A stretch of DNA of 64,000 bases from Clostridia bacterium (lineage in GTDB: Bacteria > Bacillota > Clostridia > Oscillospirales > Acutalibacteraceae): the NCBI GenBank assembly GCA_017397655.1, contig JAFQIG010000056.1, positions 6,306 through 70,305 of the forward strand. The letters are read 5' to 3'. Positions 8,080 to 43,525 of this stretch are shown piece after piece. Numbering within the stretch: the stretch's first letter is position 1; each line of letters begins with the position of its first letter. The notes under the pieces are model-generated. The model searched no databases and was not told where the DNA came from. It worked only from the letters and a program-made list of their open reading frames with translations. Both the position numbers and the translations under genes were made by a program.

Positions 8080-8108
8080 GAAAAATTTTTAACAATCACA
8101 AAAAAGCT

Positions 8109-9077: not shown

Positions 9078-9175
9078 ATTTTTTACCTCTTTTTCTTTAT
9101 TATTTTTGTCCTTCGACATATTAATAATAACATATTTTTCGTTTTGTAATTACTTTATGTAATTTTCGATGCATT

Positions 9176-10267: not shown

Positions 10268-10360
10268 CTTTATATATGTTGATGAAGCCGTTTTATGTAC
10301 TTTTTATCCTCGTTGATGCATAAAAATTTACAGCAAGTGATATTTTTCAGGAGATTGAAC

Positions 10361-10660: not shown

Positions 10661-10667
10661 GGAAACT

Positions 10668-27982: not shown

Positions 27983-27986
27983 TAAT

Positions 27987-28020
27987 GCATAACAGCAAAA
28001 CTTTCATTCTGCTGTTATGC
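27987..28020 (-). terminator. Hairpin after agrB (weak terminator candidate)
   Basis: GCAUAACAGCA-12 nt-UGCUGUUAUGC, an 11-bp perfect stem; the downstream U-tract is poor. Confidence 0.4.
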
Positions 28021-28070
28021 ACAAGTACACCGGACGGACAACATCGGGGTAAATGTATGCCGTTCGGGAC

Positions 28071-28634
28071 TTAACCGGATTTTTGTAACCGTTTGTTCTT
28101 TATCATTCCGAGAACCAACAGCACAGCCTGAACAGTCATTGCCGCAGTCAATGCACCTGTTACATTACGGTTACCATATACAATTATTATAGTCAATTCG
28201 ATAATTGATACAATAATCGCCTTACACTTGTTTATTCTTTTTCGTTTATCCGACAGCGGCTTTTCGGGTGCCGCTACAGGAGCCAGAAGAGCGATTATCG
28301 GAAATGAAGTCAAAGAAAATATCAGCCTCAGACTCAGCATCTCAAACGGAATCAGCTTCACGCCGATCAGCACGGCAACTATCATTAATGTTGACATTAC
28401 CGTACATCTCATTTCCGTTGATGCGTGCACTCCGCCGGAATATCTTCGCAGGAGGTTAAAGGCAAGAAAGAACGCCAAGGCAGCCGTCATACTTTTCAGT
28501 ATGCAGCCGCAAAGGACACAAACGGTAAGATAATACGCTTGTGATACGAGATTAAAGAGGACATATTCCATAACATCCTCTTCAATCCCGTTCAGTTTAA
28601 TTTTCCCCGATAGAAACCGAGCTATACGACTCAT
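28071..28634 (-). CDS. agrB: AgrB-family autoinducer-processing membrane peptidase (full length)
   Basis: Start at MSRIARFLSGK (28634). NLLRRYSGGVHAST motif (R..GG.HA); four or more TM segments. Confidence 0.85.
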   Translation of the reverse strand: MSRIARFLSGKIKLNGIEEDVMEYVLFNLVSQAYYLTVCVLCGCILKSMTAALAFFLAFNLLRRYSGGVHASTEMRCTVMSTLMIVAVLIGVKLIPFEMLSLRLIFSLTSFPIIALLAPVAAPEKPLSDKRKRINKCKAIIVSIIELTIIIVYGNRNVTGALTAAMTVQAVLLVLGMIKNKRLQKSG

Positions 28635-28644
28635 TCGTCTCTCA
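28276..28644. repeat. Direct repeat copy 1 (agrB 5' region; partner at 34394-34766)
   Basis: Near-identical DNA to 34394-34766. The encoded proteins differ by one 3-bp indel and two substitutions. Identity ends at ...tcattcgtctctca on one side and near ...acaggagcc on the other. Confidence 0.9.
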
Positions 28645-28752
28645 CACCATAACAAAATTCAGTCCAACACATCCTGACAGATGCTGACCGATTTCTTCGA
28701 TTTTTAACGCCGTTGCGGCGTAAAGCTTCCTTTCAAAACCATATTAATTGCC

Positions 28753-29820
28753 TTATCTATATTTTACAGGAATACCATTTTCTTTTGCAGCAATATCCGC
28801 AAAGGAGCCTTCTTCTGTTGTGATTGTAAGGTTGTTACATCCTGAAAAGGCACCGTGATCTATGCGTGTTACACTTGCAGGGATGTATATGTTTTCAAGC
28901 CTTTTGCAGTTACGGAATGCGAATCTTCCGATACTCGTCACCCCGTCGGGAATATTAACAGCTATCAACCGATTACATTCTGCAAAGGCAAGATCACGAA
29001 TCTGCTCGATTGTGCTCGGAAGAATGATCTCTGTAAGGTTTTTGCATCCATAATAACAACTTTCACCTATCCATTCTGTACCTTCCGGAAGATTTGCAGA
29101 CTCGATTTTTACACAGTTTTCAAAAAACGAGGTTGTTTGTATTTTTGCCTCTTCACACAAAAACTCAATACCCAAAAGGTTGCGACACCCCGAAAACATA
29201 CTTCCACTTATTTCTTTCAGCTCTTTCGGCAATTTGATTTCTTTCAAACCCGAACAACCATTAAAAGCCGATTCAATATATCTCAGGCTGTCGGGCAATT
29301 CAATTGATTCCAATGAATTGCAATTGCGGAAACCGCCTTTCAGAACCTTAAGATTTTCCGACAGAACAACATCATCAAGCAAGCGACAATTGATAAAAGC
29401 GTATGTATCAATAATCTGTACGGTATCGGGAACGATTACGCTTTTAATCCAGAGCTTGCTGTCAAAACAGTTTTTCGCAAGCATAAAAACGTAATAACCG
29501 TTGATCTTAAAAGGAATGTCTATATAGGCATCTTTTCCCACATATTCTTCAATAACGGCTGTTCCGTTCTCGTAACCGCTGTATGAAAAGCTGTTACAGA
29601 TACCTCTTATAACAGGCTCGTTCTCTTCGTAATAGCAATAATATCCCTTACCGTCTGATGTGATGGATTCATAAACGAGATTGCAGTATTGAATTGCCTG
29701 TCCGTATTCATAGGCAGATTTTGACACCGTGTCAGAGCAAGCTCCCAATCCCAGAACCGACATAACTGTCAGAACAACCGTTACAAGTAAATTTAACAAT
29801 TTTCCTGTTACGTTTTTCAT
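28753..29820 (-). CDS. BspA-type leucine-rich-repeat lipoprotein; candidate immunity or partner of the RHS toxin
   Basis: The ATG at 29820 overlaps the RHS stop (ATGA). Signal peptide with lipobox LGLGAC. Repeated ..I.IP..V..I...AF..C..L.. LRR_5-like units. Confidence 0.75.
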   Translation of the reverse strand: MKNVTGKLLNLLVTVVLTVMSVLGLGACSDTVSKSAYEYGQAIQYCNLVYESITSDGKGYYCYYEENEPVIRGICNSFSYSGYENGTAVIEEYVGKDAYIDIPFKINGYYVFMLAKNCFDSKLWIKSVIVPDTVQIIDTYAFINCRLLDDVVLSENLKVLKGGFRNCNSLESIELPDSLRYIESAFNGCSGLKEIKLPKELKEISGSMFSGCRNLLGIEFLCEEAKIQTTSFFENCVKIESANLPEGTEWIGESCYYGCKNLTEIILPSTIEQIRDLAFAECNRLIAVNIPDGVTSIGRFAFRNCKRLENIYIPASVTRIDHGAFSGCNNLTITTEEGSFADIAAKENGIPVKYR

Positions 29821-32800
29821 ATTAAATCCCCCCATGGATAGTATTGTCCGATATATGTTTGATCATATTCTTCCTCCGGAGTAGGCATCCATAAAATGTG
29901 AACCACCGAATCGTTTGGTGCAACAACATAGTGATAATATCCGTCAGTTCGATTCCCATCTATATTAGTCACAAATTTATTTGCCAATTCTGTAGTTTTA
30001 AAATCAATCCGTGCAGCCATAATAAGATTAGGTTTTACAAACGGCAACCAATAATATGGATTGGGAGAATATAAAAATCCAGTAAGCCACCAATGACCAT
30101 CTTCATTTGTACTAATATCAAAAAGTTTATCAACGCTGATTTTCCCTTCTGATGTTTTGCCAGATTCGATTAAAAGCGAAAAATTCATAACGAACAATTC
30201 ATCTTCTAAACAATCATATTTGGTAAAAAAAATTAAAAACTTGCTCTTATTTTTATAGAAACCAATTTCTCCACCAAAAGAAATGCCATACGCGCCTTTC
30301 CACAATTCAATTCTCCAATCTTCGCCAGAATAGCTAAACTCGCTAATAAGACAATCAATTCTAATATTAAGCAGTATAGCTGTATCATCAAAAATATCTG
30401 AATATCCAAACGCTTTTTGCCAAGGATCTAAAACAGTTGACCACGGTGTCAGAAACCAATGAATAATATTGTTAGATGGATGATAAAATCCTAAAATACC
30501 TTTTCCGTTTATGTCTGACAATTGACCAGTCTTATCAGTATACAAAATCGGATTATTTTCACAATAAGCAAAAACATTAGATCCGTTTATTCCATTTTGC
30601 TTATCAATAAAAACATCAGTATTCAAAAATCTTCCCCACTGAGGATTATAATACCTACTACCAGTATAATACAGACCAGTCTCTAAATCATAGTAATAAC
30701 CTCTATATGTCGCAGGATTAAAATTAATTGCCAGTATACTTGCAGGAGAGCACTCTTCGGAATATAGATCAAACGACATATTGCCCCAAGCATCATATAA
30801 ATATGAAACCAAAGGCGTACCCTCAGAATTTACTATTTTTATTACGTCTCCTAAAAGGTTTTTTATGTAATAATAGTTTTCATTCAAAAAATTAAAACCA
30901 ATTATGCTACCCGTTTCATCATACATTAAAGAAACAACATATTCTTCATCACCTATTTGAATACTATACCTTAACAATTCACCATCGTCCGACCAAGAGT
31001 ATTTATAAACCCAATCATTTTCATTATCAAAATTAACCTGTTTCATTATACGATAACCATCTTCATTATAACGAAAATCAATATTTTTTTCATTTTCTAC
31101 ATCTCTATAATTCCACAATTCTCGCCCATACCACTCTAAATTTACTGTGCTCTGCATTTGCGCATTATTAAATGTTATTGGATTACCGATAGCATCGTAA
31201 ACAATAGGAGTATTATCAAAGTTTATCAACTTGTCTCGCCAAGCATCATCGTATACATAAAGCGTTGTTTTAATCTCGTTATCAAGTGATTCTGTCGAGA
31301 AAGGAAACTCTGTTTTTGATGCAATATTGCCACCCTTATCATATTGATAAACAATACTTTTCAATAAAAGCACGTTATCTTCTCGAACCAATTGATTTGC
31401 TTCATCATATCTATATCTTGCTAATAATTGTTCTATTTGCTGAGACGTATCATAAATTTCAGTAATATCTCCTCGATTATTATATACGTATCTGTAGGAT
31501 TCAGTCGCTAGAGTTGAATTGCCATTTGAAATTGATGTTGAATATGACTCTACATAAGTACCTGCTGTATTCTCCGTATCATTAAACCCATTTTCTGTTA
31601 TATGTTGAACTATCAAATTGTTATCCTTATCATAAAACGATACTCCTTTTTGTGTTATCCTGTTAAATGGATCTACAACAGCATATCTTTCCGTTTTTCC
31701 ATCAGAATAAATAGTGGTTGTAGATCCCTTTGTTTCACCCGTAACAAAATCATACTCTTCCTCATTACTCGTTGTTATATATGTTTTTCCATAAAGAACA
31801 TCCGTAATAGCACCGCTATCGGGATCCACAGCATATGACTGAATTGTTCCTGATTGATTAGAGAGAACATAGCCGTTTTCTGTATAAGTTTTTGTTTCAC
31901 CCGTTAATACATCTGTTTTTGAAATAATATTGCCCTCTTCATCTCTTAAGTATGTATGCATAGGAGAATAAGTGCCATTTTCATCTTGATATTTAATTTC
32001 TGTTTTCTGTCCATTTATGTCATAACAGAAAACAATCTTGTCACCGTTACCGTAACAAACTTCATCAATATTATCATCTTGATTATAATAGTATTTTACT
32101 AAAGTATAGTCTTCAACTAAATGTTCCTTAGTATTCTCTTCCTCGTCATATAAAATTGAATATAAAGTATCGTTTCTTTCTATAGCATATACCGTACCAT
32201 CTTCTTCACAATAGTATCGTACTTCCATTAGATCATCATTGGTTAAATTTGACACACAAATCTCTTGTTTGGATAAGTTATCATAGCTATCATAAGAAAA
32301 CAACATATATGAATCTTCATATGCAGGATCGTCAGATTCTACATATAAATACGATACCAAATTATTTGAGTAATATGAGCAATCTATAGTATTTCCGTTT
32401 GTATCTGTAAATTCAAGAGGAAACGCTTCTCCGTTGTAAACATACGATTCCGTCATACATTTTGTACCGTCAGATATTGAATAAGAAACCAATGATCCAT
32501 TTTCATCTTCCACCTTGTTTTCTGTTCTTTTGCAAGCAACACAAGCACACACATCTTCACTCTCGCACAAACACTGACAATCTGGACCGTATGCACAATT
32601 TAGCTTGCCACAACCGCAGTAGTTACGATTATCGCACTCAACGCAATCGCACTCGTCTTCAGAAACACAGCTACATGGACAATCCGCTCCAAACATACAG
32701 TTATATCCACAAACACAAAGTGTACTTTTATAATATATTTTCAACACAGAACTGTTTATAGGAGTGTCTTCCATTGAACGTATAATGGATCTTCTCATAA

Positions 32801-34226
32801 TGCTTTCATCCGACAACGATAACATGAAACCATTATTATCATTACCGCTATACCAGCCTTTGATCAAATTATATAAATCAAAAGTATATATTATATCGTT
32901 TTCCTTAACAAACGGCTGACTGTCTTCAATAGGCATCAAAGTATATGCATTAACTTCCTGAGATACTGGTTGATTGTTCCAAGATATTGTTGATGGATTC
33001 CAACTAGAGAAATTTGATAAATCATAAACATTAAGAGAGGTATTTTGTGATGAAAAGAAGTTATAATATCTCTTCTGATAAATTTGAAATTCTGCCCCAG
33101 TTATCTCAAATTCATCCGAAAGTGTCGGAAGCAAAATCTTATAGTATCCTCTTGAACGACTATCCAGATTCTTTCCAACACCCACCTCGTCACTTGTTGA
33201 AAAATTTTGATTTTCCCATAAAGAATCGACCTCAACATCTTGAATTGATGCACTAGATACAGACAGACTAAATGTAGGATTGATAATTACCGGAAACTCT
33301 CTATTATTATCATTTATCCAATTCAGATTCGCTTGTACTTTTAGTAAACTATAATTATCCTCTTCAAGAAAAGTCATAACAACATCACTGCTATATTCGC
33401 CACTCGCATCAAACATATACGGAGAATCTATACTAAACACCATTTCTTTATTCTTCTTTGATAACAAATGGACAGACCCATCCTTTTGCGGCATAGCATA
33501 AAGACCATCCATTTTTAAAATAAATTCAAAGTTATAGCATTCTTTGCGTTCAGAAATAACTATGTATTCTTTAAGCGCTTTCGGTGTTATCATATATTCT
33601 AGATCGGTAGCATAAAAGGCATTATTATACACAACAGCGGATGTTTTATTGCTAACATAGTCCACCGATTTTTTGCTTTTCCATTCTTCAATCTTTTCTT
33701 CAACAAAAGAAAAAGGGGTTGATTTACTTCTATATTTCATTCTATATGATTGTAAATCTTCAATTTCACTTAACCTTGCATTGCTGTAAGAATCACTTTT
33801 ACCGTTGTTACTAACAGCAATGGAAATACTATATTCGTTATGTTTTAACTCAATGGGATTTTTTTGATTTAAGCATTTAGGTATAAGCACTTTTAAAGAA
33901 TTCGACTTATTCATCCAATTTTCTTGAGAATCAACAGATGATACGCTCTTTACCGGTATAAGAGTGTTATCAATCTCTTCCCATTTACCTTGTTTCATAT
34001 AGTGAACTGGTTCACTATATACTTCTGCAACATAAGAACCGTCTTCACAACGAAATTGTTTTACATACTCATCTCTAAAATCAAAAACTTCTCTCACCAA
34101 TTTTTTTGATTTATTTGATGATAAACTTTCTGCAAAAATAGACAAACCAGAAATATTAATCAAAACACAGCACAACAGAACAAAAGCCAGCACTCTTTTT
34201 ATTGCTATATTCAACTTAATTTTCAT
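29817..34226 (-). CDS. Sec-secreted RHS/YD-repeat polymorphic toxin (WapA-like) with a variable C-terminal domain
   Basis: 1469 aa with an N-terminal signal peptide and a DNRLRE-like region (..STISWNNQP..). Many YD repeats, an RHS core end ..YYTGSRYYNPQWGRFLNTD...NNPILYTDKTGQL, then a distinct tail of about 235 aa. GGAGG RBS. Confidence 0.9.
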   Translation of the reverse strand: MKIKLNIAIKRVLAFVLLCCVLINISGLSIFAESLSSNKSKKLVREVFDFRDEYVKQFRCEDGSYVAEVYSEPVHYMKQGKWEEIDNTLIPVKSVSSVDSQENWMNKSNSLKVLIPKCLNQKNPIELKHNEYSISIAVSNNGKSDSYSNARLSEIEDLQSYRMKYRSKSTPFSFVEEKIEEWKSKKSVDYVSNKTSAVVYNNAFYATDLEYMITPKALKEYIVISERKECYNFEFILKMDGLYAMPQKDGSVHLLSKKNKEMVFSIDSPYMFDASGEYSSDVVMTFLEEDNYSLLKVQANLNWINDNNREFPVIINPTFSLSVSSASIQDVEVDSLWENQNFSTSDEVGVGKNLDSRSRGYYKILLPTLSDEFEITGAEFQIYQKRYYNFFSSQNTSLNVYDLSNFSSWNPSTISWNNQPVSQEVNAYTLMPIEDSQPFVKENDIIYTFDLYNLIKGWYSGNDNNGFMLSLSDESIMRRSIIRSMEDTPINSSVLKIYYKSTLCVCGYNCMFGADCPCSCVSEDECDCVECDNRNYCGCGKLNCAYGPDCQCLCESEDVCACVACKRTENKVEDENGSLVSYSISDGTKCMTESYVYNGEAFPLEFTDTNGNTIDCSYYSNNLVSYLYVESDDPAYEDSYMLFSYDSYDNLSKQEICVSNLTNDDLMEVRYYCEEDGTVYAIERNDTLYSILYDEEENTKEHLVEDYTLVKYYYNQDDNIDEVCYGNGDKIVFCYDINGQKTEIKYQDENGTYSPMHTYLRDEEGNIISKTDVLTGETKTYTENGYVLSNQSGTIQSYAVDPDSGAITDVLYGKTYITTSNEEEYDFVTGETKGSTTTIYSDGKTERYAVVDPFNRITQKGVSFYDKDNNLIVQHITENGFNDTENTAGTYVESYSTSISNGNSTLATESYRYVYNNRGDITEIYDTSQQIEQLLARYRYDEANQLVREDNVLLLKSIVYQYDKGGNIASKTEFPFSTESLDNEIKTTLYVYDDAWRDKLINFDNTPIVYDAIGNPITFNNAQMQSTVNLEWYGRELWNYRDVENEKNIDFRYNEDGYRIMKQVNFDNENDWVYKYSWSDDGELLRYSIQIGDEEYVVSLMYDETGSIIGFNFLNENYYYIKNLLGDVIKIVNSEGTPLVSYLYDAWGNMSFDLYSEECSPASILAINFNPATYRGYYYDLETGLYYTGSRYYNPQWGRFLNTDVFIDKQNGINGSNVFAYCENNPILYTDKTGQLSDINGKGILGFYHPSNNIIHWFLTPWSTVLDPWQKAFGYSDIFDDTAILLNIRIDCLISEFSYSGEDWRIELWKGAYGISFGGEIGFYKNKSKFLIFFTKYDCLEDELFVMNFSLLIESGKTSEGKISVDKLFDISTNEDGHWWLTGFLYSPNPYYWLPFVKPNLIMAARIDFKTTELANKFVTNIDGNRTDGYYHYVVAPNDSVVHILWMPTPEEEYDQTYIGQYYPWGDLI

Positions 34227-34333: not shown

Positions 34334-34756
34334 TCAGTTTTTAGCATTGCTCACAAAGCATAATAAAAACAAACAAAATCCGCTACCATATACCACAGGA
34401 GCCAGAAGAGCGATTACCGGAAATGAAGTCAAAGAAAATATCAGCCTCAGACTCAGCAGCTCAAACGGAATCAGTTTCACGCCGATCAGCACGGCAACTA
34501 TCATTAATGTTGACATCACCGTACATCTCATTTCCGTTGATGCGTGCACTCCGCCGGAATATCTTCGCAGGAGGTTGAAGGCGAGAAAGAACGCCAAGGC
34601 AGCCGTCATACTTTTCAGTATGCAGCCGCAAAGGACACAAACGGTAAGATAATACGCTTGTGATACGAGATTAAAGAGGACAACATATTCCATAACATCC
34701 TCTTCAATCCCGTTCAGTTTAATTTTCCCCGATAGAAACCGAGCTATACGACTCAT
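34334..34756 (-). pseudogene. agrB: 3'-truncated agrB copy (first ~123 aa conserved, then unrelated 17-aa tail)
   Basis: 140-aa ORF identical to the full-length AgrB up to ..LLAPV except for one inserted Val and two substitutions. It lacks the C-terminal TM segments. Confidence 0.75.
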
Positions 34757-34766
34757 TCGTCTCTCA
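34394..34766. repeat. Direct repeat copy 2 (agrB 5' region; partner at 28276-28644)
   Basis: See copy 1. Confidence 0.9.
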
Positions 34767-34878
34767 TGCTGCGGGGCATCTCGGGCTGATACATCCAGAT
34801 AGATGTTGCCGAGTTAATCTGGCTCTTTGACAAAAGATTCAATGCAGCCTTAAGTGCCTTAATAATCAAGCCGATCAT
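34753..34878 (-). CDS. agrD: AgrD-like autoinducing peptide precursor (41 aa, Cys-free)
   Basis: Not in the track because it is under 60 aa. Translation by eye gives MIGLIIKALKAALNLLSKSQINSATSIWMYQPEMPRSMRDE. GAGGAG RBS 6 nt upstream; stop overlaps the agrB ATG (ATGA). Amphipathic N-terminus plus a QPE.P.S.RDE tail as in clostridial AgrD. Confidence 0.75.
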   Translation of the reverse strand: MIGLIIKALKAALNLLSKSQINSATSIWMYQPEMPRSMRDE

Positions 34879-35471: not shown

Positions 35472-36176
35472 GTGATCAATTTGAAAATTCTGATTTGTGA
35501 TGACGAAAAAGTATACGTTGATACCATCAGCACAAATATATACTATTATTTTGACAACAAACAAATCCCATATTCCGTAAGCACTTTCACAGACAGTTCC
35601 GAGATCTTCAGAAACAACGAAAAATATGACATAGCTTTTCTGGATATTGAAATGAAGCCGAAAAACGGTATTGAGATAGCGAGTGAATTAAAAAGAATCA
35701 ATCCGCATACGATCATCTTTATCATCACTTCACACAACAAATATCTGGACGACGCTATGGATCTTCAGGTTTTCCGCTATATTCAAAAGCCGATTAACAT
35801 AGGTCGGATGTTTGCAGGTCTTGACAAAGCGCTTGAAAGGCTGAAAAATACATCTGTTCAGTTTTATCTTTCGGAAAAACCGTCATATGTCCGCGTTTGT
35901 TCCGATGACATAATCTATATAGAGATCGTCAACCGCAAAACAAATGTTGTTACCTTTGACAACACATATGTTTCTGCACTTTCTATCAAGGAATGGATGG
36001 AAAAGCTTCCGAAGGGCTCTTTTTATCCCGTTCATACCAGCTTTATTGTCAATCTCAAACACATAACGGCATATTCCCGCGAATCGGTTGTTATGGACAA
36101 TCGGTTTACCATACCGATTTCTAATAAAAATAAAACTGAATTCAGAACATTCTTTTTACATTTCAACAGAAAATAA
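35472..36176 (+). CDS. LytTR-family response regulator (AgrA-like)
   Basis: Receiver domain (KILICDDE...DIAFLDIEM) plus a C-terminal LytTR DNA-binding domain (..IIYIEIVNRKTNVVT...HTSFIVNLKHI). Confidence 0.88.
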   Translation: MINLKILICDDEKVYVDTISTNIYYYFDNKQIPYSVSTFTDSSEIFRNNEKYDIAFLDIEMKPKNGIEIASELKRINPHTIIFIITSHNKYLDDAMDLQVFRYIQKPINIGRMFAGLDKALERLKNTSVQFYLSEKPSYVRVCSDDIIYIEIVNRKTNVVTFDNTYVSALSIKEWMEKLPKGSFYPVHTSFIVNLKHITAYSRESVVMDNRFTIPISNKNKTEFRTFFLHFNRK

Positions 36177-36219
36177 AATACAATAACCGAAACTTCTTTT
36201 GAAAGACGTGATATGATCA

Positions 36220-37506
36220 ATGACTCAACATCTGGTTTCTGTCGGTGCATTTATTGTTGAATGGTGGATCGTCTTTTTATACTTTAACAACATTTTTGAG
36301 AACAAAAGGCCGAAACACACAACAGCGCTTGCCGGTCTCGGATTATACGCTGTCCCGACAATAGTATTCATTCTTTTCGGAATACCGGTTGTCAACACCT
36401 TATTGCTTATTGTTATAAACTGTATTTATGCATTCTGCTTTTACAAAGCTTCGCTGATAAAAAGCATTGTTGCATCCGCTACATACATAGCGCTGATGAT
36501 GGCATCCGAGTTTATTGTAATGATTCTTCTGTCACTGATTACAAACGGCGACATCAACCAATACATCTCATCGGAACCCGTCTATGCGCTTTCCACTACA
36601 ATATCAAAAACGTTGCTTTTGTTCCTGAGTATTTTTGTTGCACGGTTTCTTTTCTCACGCAAAAGCGCATCTACGGACAAAACTCCTGCGTTTCTTTTTA
36701 TCTTTCCGCTGTCAGCCATATTTATTGACCTATCGTTCTGGAGAATCGCTTCGACAATCGAGCTTGAATCCGAAACAAAGATCATCATAAGTGCCGGAAG
36801 CGTGGTTCTTCTTATATCCGTCCTTTTCACCTATGTGTTCTACGGCAATGCCATGCGCAAAAACAGCGAGCTTTTTCAGCTGCAGAGCGCTTTTGAAAGA
36901 AGCGAAACCGAGAGGAAATACTATTCCATCCTTGACAAGCAGAACGAAGAACTGCGTTCGTTTATACACGATGAAAAAAATCATCTGACTGCAATCAAGG
37001 TAATGTCTGACGATCCTGAGATACATAATTATATTGACAGCATCATAGGTGATCTGAACCGGTCCACACCTCTCGGAAATACAAAGAACAAAACGCTTGA
37101 TCTGATTATCGGGAAGTACAACTATCTGTGTAACATAAAACAAATCAACTTTACATATTCAACACCCACTGCAAATCTTTTGTTTATAAACGACAGTGAC
37201 CTCGTCTCTATGATGAGTAATATTCTCGACAATGCTGTTGAAGCATCGGAAAATGCCGACGATAAATGGATTGATATGTATATAGAGCGTGTCGGCGGTG
37301 TCACTCTGTTCACCTGCGATAATTCGTGTGCCACAGCTCCGATAATCCTTAACGGCACTCTCAAATCCTCAAAAGAAAACAAAAAGCTTCACGGTATCGG
37401 AATGAAAAGTATTGCCCGTACCTGTGAAAAGTACAATGCTCAGCTTGAATGGAATTACAATGAAGACAACAAAGTTTTCTCCGTCAATATTCTGTTCAGA
37501 GAATAA
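36220..37506 (+). CDS. AgrC-like (HPK10) membrane sensor histidine kinase
   Basis: About six N-terminal TM segments; H-box FIHDEKNHLTAIK; GHKL ATPase N-box ILDNAVEAS and G-box HGIGMKSI. Confidence 0.8.
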   Translation: MTQHLVSVGAFIVEWWIVFLYFNNIFENKRPKHTTALAGLGLYAVPTIVFILFGIPVVNTLLLIVINCIYAFCFYKASLIKSIVASATYIALMMASEFIVMILLSLITNGDINQYISSEPVYALSTTISKTLLLFLSIFVARFLFSRKSASTDKTPAFLFIFPLSAIFIDLSFWRIASTIELESETKIIISAGSVVLLISVLFTYVFYGNAMRKNSELFQLQSAFERSETERKYYSILDKQNEELRSFIHDEKNHLTAIKVMSDDPEIHNYIDSIIGDLNRSTPLGNTKNKTLDLIIGKYNYLCNIKQINFTYSTPTANLLFINDSDLVSMMSNILDNAVEASENADDKWIDMYIERVGGVTLFTCDNSCATAPIILNGTLKSSKENKKLHGIGMKSIARTCEKYNAQLEWNYNEDNKVFSVNILFRE

Positions 37507-37836: not shown

Positions 37837-40800
37837 TCAGATCAGACCCGAATACTTCTCAAAGAATTTCTGCAATCTTTCAAGAACAGCTTTCTTTTTC
37901 TGTGCGCGGTTATTTCCGGCACCACCGAAAAGTGACATGGCAGGAAGAATTTTATCAATATCTGTTCCTGTCGTTTTTATTCCACCGTCACAAAAAGCAT
38001 TTTCAATAAACACTTTTGTTTCTTCCGGCTTTAATCTGTGTTCCGCGATAACCTCGTCAATCTCTTTTTCTTTTTGTTCACCGACAAACTTTTTCCAGTC
38101 ATTCCTGACATCGGTATTGACATTGACGGTATCAATAAAAGCTTCGATAAGCTCTTTCTTGGAACGAAGCTCAATGCTCGAACGGATAGCCTTGTCAATG
38201 GAACCGATGATCTCTTTATCCGTACAGTTTGAGTCATGATACTTTGCAACAAGCATAAGGATGTAATCGATATTAACCTCAACCTGCTTTACAAGTTCAA
38301 GTTCAAAAACAACATCATCACGTATACTCTCTTTTTCAACTTTGATTGTAAAATCATCCTTGATATCAAGATACAGGCTTGTATAATCCTGAACATCAAA
38401 GGGAGAAAGAATCTCGTTACCGATAAACTTGTCAAAAACCGAAAGGATATTGCGAAGCCTCAAGATATTACCGAAAAGAACAACGAAGTCCTTCTGGTTT
38501 TTCTCACCGCATATTTCCCTGCCGAGAGGATATTTCTGCAAAAGCTCGGCAATTCTTTCTTCATAGCCCTTTACGTGTTTGCCGTTTTCATCATAGCCGA
38601 AGTAATAATCCTCAAAGGATTTGAGAAGCACCAGACCGCTTGCATTTTTATCACCGAACAAAGAAACGGCTTCGTTGGTTTCCTGTTCAAGGTCACGGAA
38701 GCATACGATGTTACCGAACGACTTGACGGCATTCAGAATTCTGTTGGTACGGGAGAACGCCTGAATAAGACCGTGCTGTCTGAGATTTTTATCGACCCAG
38801 AGGGTATTAAGCGTTGTTGCATCAAAGCCTGTCAGGAACATATTTACAACGATCAGAATATCAACTTCACGCTCTTTGACCTTCAGTGACAAGTCTTTAT
38901 AATAGTCCTGAAAGCCTTTTGAGGATGTGTCGTAATTCGTTTTAAACAGCTTGTTATAGTCATCAATAGCGTTATCGAGGAACTCACGAGAGGTGACATC
39001 AAGCATATCGGTGTCAAAGCTTTCATCGGCAAGCAAACCGTTGGTGCCGTCCTCTTCGTTTGCACCGTAGGAGAATATTGTTGCGATTTTCAAGTCACGC
39101 TGTTTTTCTTCAAGCTGTTTTTTGAACTCATAATAATACTTTTTGGCTACAGGAATAGAACTGACGGCAAAGATCGAGTTAAAGCCGTTAAGACGCTTAC
39201 CCTTTGCCATATAGAACTGATTACGTTTTGTATGGCGGTCAAAGTTGTCAATGATATAGCTTACAATACCCTTGATGCGTTCAGGTGACTGCATGGCTTC
39301 TTCCGTGTCGATCGCATTGACCTGTCTGTCCCTTATGCCGTCTTTTCTTTTGAGTGTATCAACAAAGTCGATTCTGAACGGCAGAACATTTTTATCATTG
39401 ATAGCATCGACTATGGTATATGTATGGAGCTTTTGTCCGAAAGCCTGCTCGGTTGTTTTGAGATCAGGTATACCGCCCGATGAGGCATTTTCCGAAAAAA
39501 TCGGTGTGCCCGTAAAACCGAAGATGTGATAATTCTTAAAAAACTTATTAAACTTAATTACCTTTTCACCCTTTTTAACGGTACCTCCGACAATCCTTGT
39601 ATGCATTTCGCCGAATTGGCTGCGGTGGCATTCGTCAAAAATAAGTACAACGTGCTTATCTCTGATCGGGTGATCAGGATTCTTTGTAATAAAAATATCA
39701 AGCTTCTGAATTGTTGTAACGATAATTCTTGCCGAATCATCTTCAAGCTGCTTCTGAAGAACAGCAGTGTTTCTGTTACCGTTTGCAGCACCTTTCTCAA
39801 AGCGGTCATATTCTTTGATCGTCTGATAGTCAAGGTCTTTACGGTCAACGACAAACAGAACCTTGTCGATAAACGGAAGTGCCGTTGCAAGCTGAGCAGT
39901 CTTGAACGATGTGAGCGTTTTGCCCGAGCCCGTTGTGTGCCAGATGTAACCGCCTGCATCAATAGTGCCGGTCTGTTTGTAGTTGGTTGACGTGATTATC
40001 TTGCTGATGATCTTCTCCGTTGCAACGATCTGATACGGACGCATTACAAGTAAAAGACTCTCGCTTGTGAACACACAGTATTTTGTCAGGATACTGAGAA
40101 TCGTATGCTTTGCAAAGAATGTTTTTGTAAAGTCAACAAGATCGGGAATTGTTCTGTTATCGGCATCTGCCCAGAAGGATGTAAACTCAAACGAGTTGCT
40201 TGTTTTCTTTTTGTTGCGGGAAGATGTTCTTTCTTTTACGTGCAGATCACGTGTGGTGTTGGAGTAATATTTTGTGTGCGTACCGTTGGAAATGACGAAA
40301 AGCTGAATATATTCATAAAGTCCGCAGCCTGCCCAGAAGGACTCACGCTGATAGCGGTCAATCTGATTGAACGCTTCTCTGAGTGGTCTGCCACGGCGTT
40401 TAAGTTCAACATGAATAAGCGGCAGACCGTTGACAAGAATTGTCACATCATAACGGTTGTCGTGAGTGCCGCTGTCTTCGGTATATTGATTGATAACCTG
40501 TAAAAAGTTGTTGTGAATATTCTTTTTGTCAATCAGATAAATATTTTTTGAAGTGCCGTCATCACGCTTTAAAACCTGAATGTAATCTTCCTGAATCCTG
40601 CGTGTTTTCTCAACAATATGTTCATTGGGATTGGCGATCTGATTCTCAAAAAAGTATTTCCACTCTTTATCGGAAAACTTATAGTTGTTAAGCTTTTCAA
40701 TCTGAACACGAAGGTTTTCAATCAAAGCAGACTGACAGCTTATATCAAGATACTGATAGCCTTGCTCTGTCAGCATTTTTATAAACGCTTTTTCAAGCTC

Positions 40801-40902
40801 GGCTTCGCTCTGATACGCATCGGAACGGGCGCTCTGAGGCTCATATTTACTGACAACAGTAGCCTCGCTTGTGGATAAAACCATGTTGTACTGACTCATC
40901 AC
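37837..40902 (-). CDS. hsdR: Type I restriction enzyme R subunit HsdR
   Basis: 1021 aa. SF2 helicase motifs (TGSGKT, DECHRS) and an N-terminal PD-(D/E)xK-type region (DVTILVNGLPLIHVELK). Confidence 0.93.
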   Translation of the reverse strand: MMSQYNMVLSTSEATVVSKYEPQSARSDAYQSEAELEKAFIKMLTEQGYQYLDISCQSALIENLRVQIEKLNNYKFSDKEWKYFFENQIANPNEHIVEKTRRIQEDYIQVLKRDDGTSKNIYLIDKKNIHNNFLQVINQYTEDSGTHDNRYDVTILVNGLPLIHVELKRRGRPLREAFNQIDRYQRESFWAGCGLYEYIQLFVISNGTHTKYYSNTTRDLHVKERTSSRNKKKTSNSFEFTSFWADADNRTIPDLVDFTKTFFAKHTILSILTKYCVFTSESLLLVMRPYQIVATEKIISKIITSTNYKQTGTIDAGGYIWHTTGSGKTLTSFKTAQLATALPFIDKVLFVVDRKDLDYQTIKEYDRFEKGAANGNRNTAVLQKQLEDDSARIIVTTIQKLDIFITKNPDHPIRDKHVVLIFDECHRSQFGEMHTRIVGGTVKKGEKVIKFNKFFKNYHIFGFTGTPIFSENASSGGIPDLKTTEQAFGQKLHTYTIVDAINDKNVLPFRIDFVDTLKRKDGIRDRQVNAIDTEEAMQSPERIKGIVSYIIDNFDRHTKRNQFYMAKGKRLNGFNSIFAVSSIPVAKKYYYEFKKQLEEKQRDLKIATIFSYGANEEDGTNGLLADESFDTDMLDVTSREFLDNAIDDYNKLFKTNYDTSSKGFQDYYKDLSLKVKEREVDILIVVNMFLTGFDATTLNTLWVDKNLRQHGLIQAFSRTNRILNAVKSFGNIVCFRDLEQETNEAVSLFGDKNASGLVLLKSFEDYYFGYDENGKHVKGYEERIAELLQKYPLGREICGEKNQKDFVVLFGNILRLRNILSVFDKFIGNEILSPFDVQDYTSLYLDIKDDFTIKVEKESIRDDVVFELELVKQVEVNIDYILMLVAKYHDSNCTDKEIIGSIDKAIRSSIELRSKKELIEAFIDTVNVNTDVRNDWKKFVGEQKEKEIDEVIAEHRLKPEETKVFIENAFCDGGIKTTGTDIDKILPAMSLFGGAGNNRAQKKKAVLERLQKFFEKYSGLI

Positions 40903-40912
40903 TTCGCTCCTC

Positions 40913-41467
40913 CTATCTTTTCATATTGCTTCCCAAATCTTTTCTCATCTCTGTATAAAGGGCTGCTATATGTTGTTTGAAAATTTCAGTGCTCGGGATA
41001 TTTTCTCTTTTGAAGTTTTCCACACGACTCTCAAAACATAAAATATCCATATCAGTTACATGGCAAATCTCATATTCCTCGCCGTACTCATTAAACTCAG
41101 TCTCAAAAAAACCCGGATTATTCTGCGGATCGTTCTTGATGTAAAAGCTTCTATATTCCTCATAGTTTTTAATTACAAATTCGTAGAAAGCCTTGAAAGC
41201 CTCTTCTGTTTTAGTCGAAGAGAGAAGCTTCATTTTGGGTTTAAAATCCAGTAAAACTTGTATGTAGCTACTATCGTATGTTTTAAACCTATCATGCAGT
41301 AAATGTTCTGCTTCATCATAAAACTTAAAATACAACTCTGCCCTTTTTTCCAAAACAAGCTTTTTGACTTCGTTTTTATGTGTTATCGATAAAGTTATAA
41401 GTGCTGTAATAATTGATGTAATAATTGACACCACACCAGTTAGTATAATAATATAAAAATCGTTCAT
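40913..41467 (-). CDS. Hypothetical single-pass membrane protein embedded between hsdS and hsdR
   Basis: 184 aa with an N-terminal TM (IIILTGVVSIITSIITALITLSI). ATGA overlap with the hsdS stop. No family recognised. Confidence 0.6.
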   Translation of the reverse strand: MNDFYIIILTGVVSIITSIITALITLSITHKNEVKKLVLEKRAELYFKFYDEAEHLLHDRFKTYDSSYIQVLLDFKPKMKLLSSTKTEEAFKAFYEFVIKNYEEYRSFYIKNDPQNNPGFFETEFNEYGEEYEICHVTDMDILCFESRVENFKRENIPSTEIFKQHIAALYTEMRKDLGSNMKR

Positions 41468-42672
41468 ACGTTTGTCACCCCAAATGTCAACAACATATTC
41501 CTATAATGCTCATACTGCTTCTGCCTTGCTTCGATTTCGGCAGGAAGACCGATATTAAGATCGGAACAGATAGCATCAAAATTATCAAGAACTTCTACAA
41601 GACGATCCTGAACATCACGAGGTGGTAAAGGAATTTCAATACTCTCTATTGATGGGACATTTGAATGAACAACCTTGCTTTTAACTTTTCCTTTGCTCTT
41701 TTGCTGTCTTGCCAAAGAAGTTGACAAAACATAAGAGAGATACTTGGGGTTCTGATTATGTTTCAGAACAACTATATCACCACCGGCAAGACATTTTTCG
41801 TTGCCTACATAAGCAGTTGACTTCGCAATATCTTCAACGCTTTCACCGGTGATTGCAAAAAGAATATCTCCATACTCAAAATATTTGGGACTGTTCACAT
41901 ATTCGAGTTTGGTGTGTGAATAGCATTTGTCAAACCATATTCCGTATTTGGTATAAATTTCACCGTATCTGACACAAGGAATCCCTTCTTCGGTTACTTC
42001 ATCTCTCTTAATTCCTGCACCACGATAAATATCGGTTGCTATATCACCAAGTTTAACTCTGTGTATTTCTCCGATTCTGTCAAACGAAAGTAAATCATCA
42101 CGATAATACTCATACTGCTTTTTACGAGCTGTAAGCTCTGCTGTGAGCTCTGCTGTGAGCTCTGCTGTGAGCTCTGTAAAATTGTCCAGAATACGGACAA
42201 TTTCATTCTGCACCTCCATGGGCGGTACAGGGATTAAAAAGTCTTCTGTAACATGCAGAGAAATCTGTGGAAGAGAACCCATTCCTGAGGCAGCATCTCG
42301 GAATATTTGAATATTATTCTTCAAAACATAGTACAAAAATTTAACGGAGACTTTATCATCTGTTGTATAAGCCCACATTTCATTTTTAAATGTAAAAGGC
42401 TTGTCGTAATATACAACATCTATCACTCCACGCGACTGAACTAAAACAGCAGGGACTCTTGTAATATTAGCGTTTGGAATATCATCTTCAAAAGCATTAA
42501 TAACAGTTTTTCCACCGGCAAATACTTTTATATCACCATCAGGGTTATCAATCTCTTTCATTTTTCCTGCAGTAATAGGAGTTCCTTTTAATCGAGTGTA
42601 GACATCTTTTACCTTTCTATACTCTACACCATTGGGACAAAGTTCCTCTATCAGTTGTTCAAGTTTTGTCAT
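41464..42672 (-). CDS. hsdS: Type I R-M specificity subunit HsdS (type IC-like central region)
   Basis: Two TRDs separated by ...FTELTAELTAELTAELTARKKQYEYYRDDLL, with C-terminal ...EIEARQKQYEHYRNMLLTF. The start is taken at [18 protein letters not shown]. Confidence 0.9.
   Translation of the reverse strand: MTKLEQLIEELCPNGVEYRKVKDVYTRLKGTPITAGKMKEIDNPDGDIKVFAGGKTVINAFEDDIPNANITRVPAVLVQSRGVIDVVYYDKPFTFKNEMWAYTTDDKVSVKFLYYVLKNNIQIFRDAASGMGSLPQISLHVTEDFLIPVPPMEVQNEIVRILDNFTELTAELTAELTAELTARKKQYEYYRDDLLSFDRIGEIHRVKLGDIATDIYRGAGIKRDEVTEEGIPCVRYGEIYTKYGIWFDKCYSHTKLEYVNSPKYFEYGDILFAITGESVEDIAKSTAYVGNEKCLAGGDIVVLKHNQNPKYLSYVLSTSLARQQKSKGKVKSKVVHSNVPSIESIEIPLPPRDVQDRLVEVLDNFDAICSDLNIGLPAEIEARQKQYEHYRNMLLTFGVTNV
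42128..42175 (-). repeat. 12-bp tandem repeat x4 inside hsdS encoding (TAEL)4
   Basis: Plus strand gctgtaagctct, then gctgtgagctct three times (42128-42175). Confidence 0.95.
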
Positions 42673-43525
42673 TGATTCTATCCCTCGCACATTTTAATGC
42701 TTCAAAACTCTTATTGGAAAATAAAAGCCGAGAACAGTTTTTGATTATTTCCTTATTGTATGAAGCAATATTCTTGATCTGATATATATCAAAAAACGCT
42801 AAGTCATTTTTCAAAATATCTTTGTGAAATATTTCAACTGCAACAGTAGGTGAAAGCGGTACAAAATATGTCACTTCCGGTGATACTGCTGAAATGGGTT
42901 CATTTGTTTTTTTACTATGGTCAATTTTTATCACAGGATTGTCGGATGTAATAAACGGAAGTTCTGTATGATTAATTATGAAAATCCAATGCCAATCACT
43001 AAATAGATTTGCATAGAAATTGCTCATACCAAAATCTAAAATTTCAGATGTGTGGATGCGCTGAAAATCCGTTTTTGAATATTGCGGTATATCCGCATAA
43101 GGAAAACCATCTTTTATCTGTTGATAAATATCTTTATAATAATTTCTAAATGCCTCTGTTCTTGTTATTAACAGTGCAAATTGAGCAGAAAGTTGCTCTT
43201 TTTCTATCTGTAGAGAAGAGCAATCTCGATGCTGAGGATCAATAATTATCGTGTCAAGCAAAACACGTAATAATGTGGCAAGTTCTCCCTCTATTTTATT
43301 TCCAAAAAATTTTTCAATAATTTTCTTTTGTTCGCCAAGTTCTTCGATATCATAAAAACGTTTGATTACTGGAAACTTTCCCACTTTTGAGCTGTCACAT
43401 TTATTTTCCTGCACATTGTAGAAATAAAGCATTGAATCACGACCTTTATTCCCTTCAATGCCGAAATTTGCCAAATAGGCTACCGGAACAGTATGCGAAT
43501 GTTCTACTGTGTTTTTATTTCCCAT
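42659..43525 (-). CDS. Hypothetical protein, DUF4238-like, embedded between hsdM and hsdS
   Basis: About 288 aa. N-terminal [13 protein letters not shown] resembles the H..VPQFYL..F start of DUF4238, recalled from memory and not searched. Overlaps both neighbours. Confidence 0.5.

What the first reader, a model, noticed from the sequence alone, without database searches (positions are those of the whole stretch)
28753..30528. Unassigned ~235-aa RHS C-terminal toxin domain translationally coupled to an LRR lipoprotein
After the RHS core terminus (..NNPILYTDKTGQL, ~30530) the protein ends in a tail that I cannot assign to a nuclease, deaminase, ADP-ribosyltransferase or peptidase family. The tail reads ..EDWRIELWKGAYGISFGGEIGFY..HWWLTGFLY... 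The W.IELWKG.YG..GGEIG.Y block resembles DUF4474, but that is from memory only.

The toxin stop overlaps the start of the next gene (ATGA at 29817-29820). That gene is not a small cytoplasmic immunity protein. It is a 355-aa BspA-type LRR protein with a lipobox (LGLGAC), so it is predicted to be surface-tethered.

Inference: the LRR lipoprotein may be an extracytoplasmic immunity protein, which would imply an envelope-acting toxin. Alternatively it is a co-secreted partner and the true immunity gene is missing.
Basis: partly seen in the sequence, partly recalled or inferred. Interest (0 to 1): 0.7.

Follow-up and report, generated by a model that had tools for sequence, protein, structure and literature searches.

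The report
RHS toxin tip with lipoprotein antidote
A secreted RHS toxin of an uncultured gut-type Clostridia bacterium ends in a DUF4474 domain, a widespread domain of unknown function and unmatched fold, and in every related locus this tip is followed by an exported leucine-rich-repeat protein that is most likely its antidote, which points to a toxin that attacks the cell envelope from outside.

Summary
A 1469-aa Sec-signal RHS protein (29817-34226, minus strand) ends after its RHS core in a 236-aa tail. Its stop overlaps (ATGA) the start of a 355-aa BspA-type LRR lipoprotein.

DUF4474 has 1860 representative clusters, almost all in Clostridia. No searchable paper mentions it. Two confident AlphaFold models (pLDDT 85 and 91) have no Foldseek match in the PDB.

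RHS tails close to this one form a single clade. In all 7 loci with enough downstream DNA, the next gene is an exported LRR_5 protein; two truncated loci are consistent. None of 4 RHS genes with other tails has one, and none of 875 ORFs around standalone DUF4474 genes is LRR_5-like. More distant RHS-DUF4474 tails are followed by other small lipoproteins or membrane-anchored proteins.

Best reading: a polymorphic toxin that acts outside the cytoplasmic membrane and is neutralised by a membrane-tethered LRR immunity protein. Its chemistry is unknown. Standalone homologues are tightly linked or fused to metallophosphoesterases, which hints at a phosphate-containing envelope substrate.

This is a new member of a known kind. 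The cassette sits inside an agrD-agrB quorum-sensing operon.

The parts
29817..34226 (-). RHS/YD-repeat polymorphic toxin gene, 1469 aa including the stop codon: Sec signal peptide, DNRLRE domain, Cys-rich stretch, RHS shell, Rhs core and DUF4474 tail
   Evidence: ORF and translation. PF05593, TIGR03696, NF033679 and PF14751 hits. An identical protein is P0058 / MBQ3151129.1.
34131..34226 (-). Predicted Sec signal peptide of the RHS protein (MKIKLNIAIKRVLAFVLLCCVLINISGLSIFA|ES)
   Evidence: Read from the translation: positive n-region, hydrophobic core and an A-x-A-like site. No dedicated predictor was available.
32769..33239 (-). DNRLRE domain (aa 330-486) in the N-terminal surface or targeting part
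   Evidence: NF033679, E 1.6e-18, 67.3 bits against a cut-off of 34.
30522..30797 (-). Rhs-associated core (aa 1144-1235), ending in ..YTDKTGQL. This is the position of the usual autocleavage motif that releases the tail.
   Evidence: TIGR03696, E 3.1e-17. The motif is a variant of PxxxxDPxGL. Cleavage itself was not tested.
29820..30527 (-). C-terminal tail (aa 1234-1469), the predicted toxin domain of family DUF4474. The Pfam match covers aa 1263-1432, window 29931-30440.
   Evidence: PF14751, E 2.3e-28. All 11 family-invariant residues are present: W76 K77 G78 Y80 G85 E87 Y91 W146 W147 T149 G150. AlphaFold model with pLDDT 85.4 and pTM 0.84, mostly long antiparallel strands.
29817..29820 (-). 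ATGA overlap of the toxin stop codon and the LRR start codon (translational coupling)
   Evidence: Sequence.
28753..29820 (-). BspA-type LRR lipoprotein, 355 aa: the predicted extracytoplasmic immunity protein
   Evidence: LRR_5, E 3.4e-53. Lipobox pattern met. Exported LRR_5 proteins lie directly downstream of all related RHS-DUF4474 tails.
29737..29820 (-). Lipoprotein signal peptide of the LRR protein, up to the lipid-modified Cys28 (..SVLGLGAC)
   Evidence: Regex modelled on my recollection of PROSITE PS51257. Translation.
34395..34766 (.). Upstream copy of a 372-nt direct repeat (5' part of agrB) bounding the low-GC RHS-LRR cassette
   Evidence: the repeat finder families D1 and D2, 98-100% identity. 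GC is 32% inside the cassette against about 44% outside.
28276..28644 (.). Downstream copy of the same direct repeat, here the start of the intact agrB
34753..34878 (-). AgrD-type autoinducing-peptide precursor (41 aa), the first gene of the operon that now contains the cassette
   Evidence: TIGR04223, E 5.6e-8, 32.8 bits against a cut-off of 19.
34334..34756 (-). Truncated agrB' (140 aa, N-terminal part only), upstream of the RHS gene
   Evidence: PF04647 profile positions 3-125 of 185.
28071..28655 (-). Full-length agrB downstream of the LRR gene. A terminator-like hairpin follows at 27985-28022.
   Evidence: PF04647 profile positions 3-182 of 185. Hairpin.

Best explanation
**What it is.** This is a two-gene polymorphic toxin-immunity cassette of a monoderm, spore-forming Clostridia bacterium.

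**Shown**
- The RHS protein carries a Sec signal peptide.
- It has an RHS shell and an Rhs core.
- It ends in a DUF4474 tail.

**Inferred mechanism**
1. As in other RHS toxins, the tail is cut off at the core motif (..YTDKTGQ|L), kept inside the shell, and delivered to neighbouring bacteria.
2. The DUF4474 tail acts on the outer face of the cytoplasmic membrane or in the wall, not in the cytoplasm.
3. Most likely it is an enzyme or a tight ligand binder. Its site would be built from the invariant Lys, Glu, Tyr, Thr and Trp residues on the beta2-beta3 hairpin and strand beta7.
4. The substrate would be a membrane-proximal envelope component. It possibly contains phosphate, for example a lipid-linked precursor, a phospholipid or a teichoic-type polymer.
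5. The LRR lipoprotein is translationally coupled to the toxin and tethered by its lipid anchor to the outside of the producer's membrane. It binds the tail on its concave repeat surface and blocks it, protecting the producer and its siblings.
6. The cassette was acquired horizontally. It lies within an agrD-agrB operon, so it may be expressed under quorum-sensing control.
For: **Domain identities and family size**
- DUF4474 is a large family: 1860 representative clusters at E <= 1e-3. It has 11 invariant residues, among them K, E, Y and T, which suggests a site rather than a scaffold.

**Polymorphic-toxin context**
- DUF4474 tails sit in orphan-module arrays, interleaved with other tail-plus-small-immunity modules (L087, L094, L082).
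- Related RHS scaffolds carry other tails.

**Immunity position and export**
- In 13 independent RHS-DUF4474 loci the gene right after the tail encodes a protein with a lipobox or an N-terminal signal or membrane anchor.
- In the clade that contains the window tail (NJ tree), 7 of 7 complete downstream genes are LRR_5 proteins. The truncated L081 neighbour hits the window LRR protein at E 7e-6.

**Specificity**
- None of 875 ORFs in the 80 standalone DUF4474 loci is LRR_5-like. Fisher p is about 1e-6; this test used 6 LRR-positive of 12 RHS loci, run before L136 was added.
- None of 4 RHS genes with non-DUF4474 tails has an LRR_5 gene immediately downstream.
- The closest tail pair also has the closest LRR pair: L089-L091, 64% and 40% identity.

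**Envelope link**
- Exported DUF4474 proteins are fused to M23 peptidase, PG_binding_1, an Rv2525c-like glycoside-hydrolase-like domain, SH3_3, Big_2, fn3, and Zn-phospholipase C plus PLAT.

**Phosphate hint**
- A metallophosphoesterase gene lies immediately downstream of 56 of 82 non-RHS DUF4474 ORFs (52 of type 1, 4 of type 2), and it is fused to DUF4474 in 3 representatives.

**Precedent**
- Zhang et al. 2012 list an Imm-LRR immunity class (PMC3482391).
Against: - There is no experimental or structural evidence of toxicity or of tail-LRR binding.
- The fold has no match in the PDB or BFVD, so no chemistry can be transferred.
- By the positive-inside rule, most standalone homologues place DUF4474 in the cytoplasm: 51 of 82 are N-out/C-in, and a further 12 have no N-terminal membrane segment. 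They sit next to a cytoplasmic metallophosphoesterase. The ancestral site of action may therefore be the inner face of the membrane.
- BspA-type LRR proteins are common surface proteins in Clostridia and could have another role.
- The NJ tree has no support values.
- The loci come mostly from metagenome fragments.
- Signal peptides, lipoboxes and topology were judged by simple rules, not by dedicated predictors.
Confidence: 0.6

Rival explanations
1. The DUF4474 tail acts at the cytoplasmic face of the membrane or inside the cytoplasm, as most of its homologues seem to. The LRR lipoprotein protects by capturing the tail at the cell surface before it can translocate. It would be a surface decoy or entry block, not an inhibitor at the site of action.
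For: 51 of 82 standalone homologues are predicted N-out/C-in, and a further 12 lack an N-terminal membrane segment. 46 of the 51 are followed by a signal-less metallophosphoesterase. Zhang et al. 2012 discuss membrane immunity proteins that may block toxin uptake.
Against: The family also has many clearly exported members with wall-binding partner domains, so the domain does function outside the cell. The characterised Sec-exported Gram-positive RHS-type toxin I know of, B. subtilis WapA, acts in the cytoplasm and has a cytoplasmic immunity protein (own knowledge). No cytoplasmic candidate gene exists in the cassette.
Confidence: 0.15
2. The LRR lipoprotein is not an immunity protein. It is an accessory partner of the toxin, such as a surface tether, chaperone or receptor-binding adaptor. 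Immunity is either absent or unnecessary because the target is another kind of organism.
For: BspA-type LRR proteins are commonly annotated as adhesins; the HupY/LrrG adhesin is the best NCBIfam hit, though far below its cut-off. A standalone exported DUF4474 lipoprotein is also followed by a 951-aa secreted LRR_5 protein (L096). That could reflect a working partnership rather than immunity.
Against: The LRR gene tracks the tail, not the RHS delivery scaffold. It follows orphan tail modules (L081, L087, L089) and is absent after 4 related RHS genes with other tails. More distant RHS-DUF4474 tails are followed by small unrelated lipoproteins or anchored proteins in the same slot, which is the pattern of fast-evolving immunity genes. 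A lipid anchor under a thick wall is a poor position for an adhesin (inference).
Confidence: 0.15
3. The DUF4474 tail is not a toxin. It is a binding or remodelling module, for example a wall- or glycan-binding domain, carried by an RHS-like surface protein.
For: Many family members are ordinary-looking surface proteins with Big_2 or fn3 repeats. The domain is rich in invariant aromatic residues, as carbohydrate-binding modules are. No toxin family or fold matches.
Against: The tail sits after the Rhs core, where characterised RHS proteins carry toxins (own knowledge). It occurs in orphan tail-immunity arrays. It is strictly paired with a variable exported partner. The invariant K, E and T residues suggest more than stacking.
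Confidence: 0.08

Closest known systems
WapA/WapI of Bacillus subtilis and RHS/YD-repeat polymorphic toxins in general
   Same: A Sec-exported large wall-associated protein with an RHS shell, an Rhs core and a variable C-terminal tail. A cognate gene lies immediately downstream, orphan tail-immunity modules occur elsewhere, and acquisition is horizontal.
   Different: WapA tails are tRNases with small cytoplasmic immunity proteins (own knowledge). Here the tail is a DUF4474 domain of unknown activity, and the partner is a 355-aa lipid-anchored LRR protein outside the membrane.
TelC-TipC of Streptococcus intermedius (LXG/T7SS lipid II phosphatase with a membrane-anchored extracellular immunity protein)
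   Same: A working analogy only. A Gram-positive interbacterial toxin acts outside the membrane on an envelope precursor, and its immunity protein is displayed on the outer face of the membrane (own knowledge).
   Different: The delivery system differs (T7SS/LXG against Sec/RHS). There is no sequence or fold similarity: Foldseek against the PDB gave no hit with E < 1e-3 for either DUF4474 model. TipC is not an LRR protein.
Imm-LRR immunity class of Zhang et al. 2012 (PMC3482391)
   Same: Leucine-rich-repeat proteins encoded next to polymorphic toxins and in polyimmunity loci, including in Firmicutes.
   Different: That class was described next to T5SS toxins and without a lipid anchor. The same paper calls lipoprotein immunity exceptional, naming only Imm65. 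Here the LRR is of the BspA LRR_5 type, is exported, and is tied to one toxin clade.
Periplasm-acting T6SS effectors with lipoprotein or periplasmic immunity (Tae/Tai, Tge/Tgi, Tle/Tli)
   Same: The location of the immunity protein reports the compartment in which the toxin acts (own knowledge).
   Different: Those occur in diderm bacteria with T6SS delivery and have known hydrolase folds. None matches DUF4474.
Standalone DUF4474 proteins of Clostridia (PF14751)
   Same: They share the same domain with all invariant residues.
   Different: They are usually 260-380 aa single-pass membrane proteins, mostly predicted to face the cytoplasm. They have an extra C-terminal helical region (Pfam profile positions ~175-240; helices 216-278 in the P0016 model) that the RHS tail lacks. 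They pair with a metallophosphoesterase gene rather than an LRR gene.

Membership tests
Pfam PF14751 (DUF4474) | Score above the curated gathering threshold of the family HMM | tested here: met
   99.7 bits against a cut-off of 23, E 2.3e-28. The match covers profile positions 20-173 of 240. The C-terminal ~65 profile positions are absent.
Pfam PF14751 (DUF4474) | Family-invariant residues (WKGxY, GxEIGxY, WWLTG) | tested here: met
   All 11 invariant columns of a 57-sequence alignment are present in the tail.
RHS/YD-repeat polymorphic toxin | RHS repeats and the Rhs-associated core domain preceding the variable tail | tested here: met
   PF05593, 25.6 bits (cut-off 22). TIGR03696, 62.9 bits (cut-off 32.5), at aa 1144-1235.
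RHS/YD-repeat polymorphic toxin | Autoproteolytic release motif PxxxxDPxGL at the end of the core | tested here: inconclusive
   The sequence reads NNPILYTDKTGQL: the Asp and Gly are kept, but DPxGL is replaced by DKTGQL. Related proteins have DPNGEL, DPYGYI and similar. Cleavage is not testable here.
RHS/YD-repeat polymorphic toxin | Tail polymorphism: the same kind of scaffold with different tails, and orphan tail-immunity modules | tested here: met
   Related RHS proteins carry non-DUF4474 tails. Orphan DUF4474 modules occur in arrays (L081, L087, L094). No close (>35% identity) homologue of this particular scaffold was found.
RHS/YD-repeat polymorphic toxin | The tail is toxic and is neutralised by the product of the downstream gene | not testable with these tools
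   Needs expression and competition assays.
Imm-LRR immunity proteins (Zhang et al. 2012) | A leucine-rich-repeat protein encoded directly next to a polymorphic toxin tail, co-varying with it | tested here: met
   LRR_5, E 3.4e-53, with an ATGA overlap. LRR_5 lies downstream in 7 of 7 complete loci of the clade. The closest tail pair is also the closest LRR pair.
Bacterial lipoprotein (SPase II substrate) | Signal peptide ending in a lipobox with an invariant Cys | tested here: met
   MKNVTGK-LLNLLVTVVLTVMSVLG-LGAC matches a pattern modelled on my recollection of PROSITE PS51257. No dedicated predictor (SignalP or LipoP) was available.
Known toxin or hydrolase folds (nuclease, deaminase, ART, peptidase, lipase, lysozyme, TelC, colicin M, beta-pore-formers) | Detectable sequence or fold similarity | tested here: not met
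   Pfam and NCBIfam show only DUF4474. PDB sequence and profile searches were empty. Foldseek against the PDB and BFVD gave a best E of 0.003-0.05 and TM < 0.3 for two confident models. PADLOC was empty.
agr quorum-sensing locus (context) | AgrD precursor, AgrB processing protein, and a LytTR regulator with a GHKL kinase | tested here: met
   TIGR04223. PF04647 twice, PF04397 with PF00072, and PF14501.

The most novel reading that the evidence does not exclude
DUF4474 is a previously unrecognised enzyme fold that acts on a phosphate-linked membrane or envelope lipid, such as a polyprenyl-linked precursor or a phospholipid head group. In most Clostridia it would work as a housekeeping, membrane-tethered partner of a metallophosphoesterase at the inner face of the membrane. 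It has been weaponised several times as an RHS tail that attacks the same substrate from outside, each time with its own exported inhibitor: an LRR lipoprotein in one clade and small lipoproteins in others. The RHS toxin-LRR pair would then be a natural enzyme-plus-specific-inhibitor reagent set for deorphanising a family present in at least 595 species genomes.
Probability: 0.25. Interest if true: 0.75.

Novelty: new member of a known kind. Interest (0 to 1): 0.52.

Why it matters
DUF4474 is a large family confined to Clostridia. It has 1860 representative clusters and hits in at least 595 species genomes, many from gut MAGs. It has no literature and no structural analogue.

Finding it as the business end of RHS toxins gives the first functional handle on it. 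The invariant pairing with an exported inhibitor-like protein suggests an activity that is harmful at the outer face of the membrane.

It also adds a Gram-positive example of an interbacterial toxin with extracytoplasmic, lipid-anchored immunity. Few such cases are characterised.

The toxin-LRR pair is a concrete system for experiments: toxicity by compartment, co-crystallisation, and a substrate search guided by the metallophosphoesterase link.

The insertion into an agrDB operon raises a testable idea that toxin production is under quorum-sensing control.

Tried and rejected
- **Known toxin classes.** Pfam, NCBIfam and PADLOC scans of the tail gave nothing beyond DUF4474. This included a permissive Pfam scan (E <= 1) of 57 family members.
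- **Solved relatives.** phmmer and a profile hmmsearch against PDB sequences gave nothing credible; the best hit was a DNA ligase at E 1.6.
- **Fold comparison.** Two AlphaFold models were made: the tail (pLDDT 85.4) and the standalone P0016 (pLDDT 91.2). Foldseek against the PDB and BFVD gave only chance-level hits (GFP-like barrels, CapZ, leukocidins) at TM 0.1-0.3. I therefore reject any claim of a GFP-like or pore-former fold.
- **Literature.** 'DUF4474' and 'PF14751' each return zero papers.
- **LRR as a general RHS accessory.** Rejected, because 4 control RHS loci lack an LRR_5 gene immediately downstream.
- **Defence-system reading of the standalone DUF4474-metallophosphoesterase pair.** There is no PADLOC support, and I did not pursue it.
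- **Complex prediction.** A tail-LRR complex could not be predicted. The structure tool takes single chains and only window or first-search sequences.


Full report
**1. The observation**

The minus-strand ORF 29817..34226 encodes a 1469-aa protein. It has:
- a Sec-type signal peptide;
- a DNRLRE domain at aa 330-486 (NF033679, E 1.6e-18);
- a Cys-rich stretch;
- RHS repeats (PF05593);
- the Rhs-associated core TIGR03696 at aa 1144-1235, ending in ..NNPILYTDKTGQL.

The remaining 236 aa (window 29820-30527) contain the quoted WRIELWKGAYGISFGGEIGFY and HWWLTGFLY blocks. They hit Pfam PF14751 (DUF4474) at E 2.3e-28, 99.7 bits against a cut-off of 23.

The toxin's TGA overlaps the ATG of the next gene (ATGA, 29817-29820), with a GGGGGA run 8 nt upstream. 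That gene (28753-29820) encodes a 355-aa protein with BspA-type LRR_5 repeats (E 3.4e-53). Its N-terminus MKNVTGKLLNLLVTVVLTVMSVLGLGAC fits a lipobox pattern modelled on my recollection of PROSITE PS51257.

The gene pair, with the RHS protein identical, occurs on four metagenome contigs. It belongs to a MAG labelled 'Clostridia bacterium' (MBQ3151129.1 and MBQ3151128.1). The neighbouring genes are SASP, mraZ, rsmH, ftsL and a PASTA-domain PBP, which fits a spore-forming monoderm.

**2. What DUF4474 is**

No paper in the library mentions DUF4474 or PF14751.

*Size and spread*
- A full HMMER scan with a small profile found 1860 representative clusters at E <= 1e-3, and 577 at E <= 1e-30.
- A scan of one genome per species found at least 595 loci, all in Clostridia/Bacillota.

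*Conserved residues*
- A 57-sequence alignment has 11 invariant residues, in tail numbering: W76 K77 G78 Y80 G85 E87 Y91 W146 W147 T149 G150.
- Near-invariant residues are Q37, D47, D58 and R138.

*Structure*
- AlphaFold models are confident: tail pLDDT 85.4, pTM 0.84; standalone P0016 pLDDT 91.2, pTM 0.88.
- They show a sheet of long antiparallel strands. The invariant residues lie on the beta2-beta3 hairpin and on strand beta7.
- Foldseek against the PDB and BFVD gave no hit below E 1e-3 and no TM above 0.3.
- PDB sequence and profile searches, a permissive Pfam scan of all members, and PADLOC were also empty.
- With the libraries at hand, the fold has no known analogue. The AlphaFold DB was not available.

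*Architectures*
- Most members are 260-380 aa single-pass membrane proteins.
- By the positive-inside rule, 51 of 82 ORFs in the genome loci are N-out/C-in, so the domain is cytoplasmic. Twelve more lack an N-terminal membrane segment. Sixteen have a signal peptide or lipobox, so the domain is outside.
- 46 of the 51 N-out/C-in ORFs are followed directly by a signal-less ~300-aa calcineurin-like metallophosphoesterase. Four lipoprotein forms are followed by a second, 472-aa metallophosphoesterase type.
- Three representatives fuse DUF4474 to a metallophosphoesterase.
- Exported multidomain members combine DUF4474 with:
  - S8 and M23 peptidases;
  - PG_binding_1 plus an Rv2525c-like glycoside-hydrolase-like domain;
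  - SH3_3, Big_2 or fn3 repeats;
  - Zn-phospholipase C plus PLAT.

The domain therefore works on both sides of the membrane and always near it. Its partners are phosphoesterases or envelope-binding and envelope-degrading modules.

**3. The RHS-linked members and their partners**

A metagenome scan with an alignment of RHS-type tails, two hits from the RHS-scaffold search and contig look-ups gave 13 independent RHS-DUF4474 loci. The downstream gene in each is as follows.

| Locus | Downstream gene |
|---|---|
| Window | LRR_5 lipoprotein |
| L087, L089, L091 | LRR_5 lipoproteins |
| L130 (P0204) | LRR_5 lipoprotein |
| L131 (P0205) | signal-anchored LRR_5 protein |
| L136 (P0126) | two LRR_5 proteins, the first signal-anchored |
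| L081, L090 | lipoproteins cut by the contig end before the repeats; L081 still hits the window LRR at E 7e-6 |
| L082, L094 | unrelated small lipoproteins |
| L092 | small membrane-anchored protein |
| L088 | lipoprotein fragment |

In a neighbour-joining tree, the nine tails linked to LRR proteins form one clade apart from all other DUF4474 sequences. The tails with small partners lie elsewhere (no support values).

*Controls*
- None of 875 ORFs around the 80 standalone DUF4474 genes resembles the LRR protein. Fisher p is about 1e-6; the test used 6 LRR-positive of 12 RHS loci, before L136 was added.
- Four RHS genes with related scaffolds but other tails are followed by non-LRR proteins of 116-282 aa.

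*Further support*
- Several DUF4474 modules are orphan tails inside arrays in which each tail is followed by its own small gene (L087, L094). There the LRR gene occupies the immunity slot.
- The closest tail pair (L089-L091, 64% identity) also has the closest LRR pair (40%).

The partner therefore tracks the tail, not the delivery scaffold, and it is always exported.

**4. Mechanism**

*Shown:* the domain composition, the coupling of the two genes, the clade-wide pairing, and the export signals.

*Inferred:*
1. The tail is released at the core motif and delivered to neighbouring cells, as in other RHS toxins.
2. It acts outside the cytoplasmic membrane.
3. The LRR lipoprotein, held on the outer leaflet, binds and blocks it.

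The argument from compartment rests on a contrast. A Sec-exported Gram-positive RHS-type toxin that acts in the cytoplasm (WapA) has a cytoplasmic immunity protein (own knowledge). Here every partner is extracytoplasmic. The working analogy is TelC-TipC, but membership is excluded by the lack of any sequence or fold similarity.

The chemistry is open. The invariant K, E, Y and T residues with flanking glycines and tryptophans suggest an enzyme or a tight ligand site. The phosphoesterase and phospholipase C links suggest a phosphate-bearing membrane or wall substrate. I give that last step about 25%.

The main caveat is that most homologues face the cytoplasm. This keeps alive the rival that the LRR protein intercepts the tail before entry.

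**5. Comparison and novelty**

The locus is a canonical RHS toxin-immunity pair in layout. LRR immunity proteins are a listed class, and the same survey calls lipoprotein immunity exceptional (PMC3482391).

What is new:
- a toxin role can be assigned to DUF4474;
- its fold has no match in the libraries searched;
- one tail clade is strictly paired with exported BspA-type LRR proteins in monoderm bacteria.

NCBI already labels the protein as DUF4474-containing, so the domain call itself is not new. I rate the finding a new member of a known kind, with moderate interest.

**6. Context noticed**

The 6.1-kb cassette has 32% GC against about 44% around it. It is bounded by a 372-nt direct repeat at 28276-28644 and 34395-34766, which is the 5' part of agrB.

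The gene order on the minus strand is: AgrD precursor (TIGR04223), truncated agrB', RHS, LRR, intact agrB, and then the only strong terminator-like hairpin. An XRE regulator, a LytTR response regulator and a GHKL kinase lie divergently upstream.

This is the layout expected from a single-crossover integration through an agrB fragment. It would place the toxin pair in the agrDB transcript. Both points are inferences.

A second RHS-DUF4474-LRR locus (L130) also has a LytTR regulator and GHKL kinase just upstream.

Noticed in passing
window 28276-28644 and 34395-34766 (with 28071-28655, 34334-34756 and 34753-34878): The low-GC RHS-LRR cassette is inserted inside an agrD-agrB operon and flanked by a 372-nt direct repeat of the 5' part of agrB (98-100% identical). 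The upstream agrB copy is truncated at 140 aa and the downstream copy is intact. The only strong terminator-like hairpin follows the intact copy (27985-28022). The layout looks like a single-crossover (Campbell-type) integration and may put the toxin under quorum-sensing control.
   Followed up: partly
L130 699-2722 (upstream of RHS-DUF4474 at 5001-11447); window 35472-37506: A second, independent RHS-DUF4474-LRR locus (GCA_947628175.1) also has a LytTR response regulator and a GHKL (HATPase_c_5) kinase directly upstream, as the window does. This could be a recurrent agr-type regulatory link or a coincidence.
   Followed up: no
L001-L080 (e.g. L055 2145-3215 and 3221-4123; L024 5545-6522 and 6555-7973); P0070: Non-RHS DUF4474 genes form a conserved pair with a calcineurin-like metallophosphoesterase immediately downstream (56 of 82 ORFs: 52 of a ~300-aa type, 4 of a 472-aa type), and three representatives fuse the two domains. 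The function of this widespread Clostridia module is unknown. PADLOC gave no hit.
   Followed up: partly
L001-L080, N-termini of the DUF4474 ORFs: By the positive-inside rule, 51 of 82 DUF4474 proteins are N-out/C-in, with a K/R cluster after the single membrane helix and often Cys-rich or Pro/Cys-rich segments. Sixteen have true signal peptides or lipoboxes. The same domain thus appears on both faces of the membrane.
   Followed up: partly
L096 6629-7540 and 7699-10554: A standalone lipoprotein-type DUF4474 (303 aa) is followed by a 951-aa secreted protein made largely of LRR_5 repeats (E 4.5e-170). This is a second DUF4474-LRR adjacency, outside any RHS context.
   Followed up: no
P0176 (1111 aa), P0117 (1799 aa): These are unusual multidomain DUF4474 proteins. 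P0176 has Zn-phospholipase C, DUF7910 repeats, PLAT and DUF4474, with no signal peptide. P0117 has an S8 protease, FG-GAP repeats, CARDB, an M23 peptidase and DUF4474.
   Followed up: no
window 37837-43540: A type I restriction-modification region lies next to the agr locus. It includes a 1021-aa HsdR (EcoR124_C, T1R_D3-like, SWI2_SNF2, HSDR_N) and further ORFs that were not annotated here.
   Followed up: no
L087 2-9606: A textbook orphan-module array: a main RHS gene, then repeated tail and small-immunity modules, with the start of the orphan ORFs (MLNKSFTYTYDKGGN) repeated. The main RHS protein itself has an LRR-like N-terminal region.
   Followed up: no
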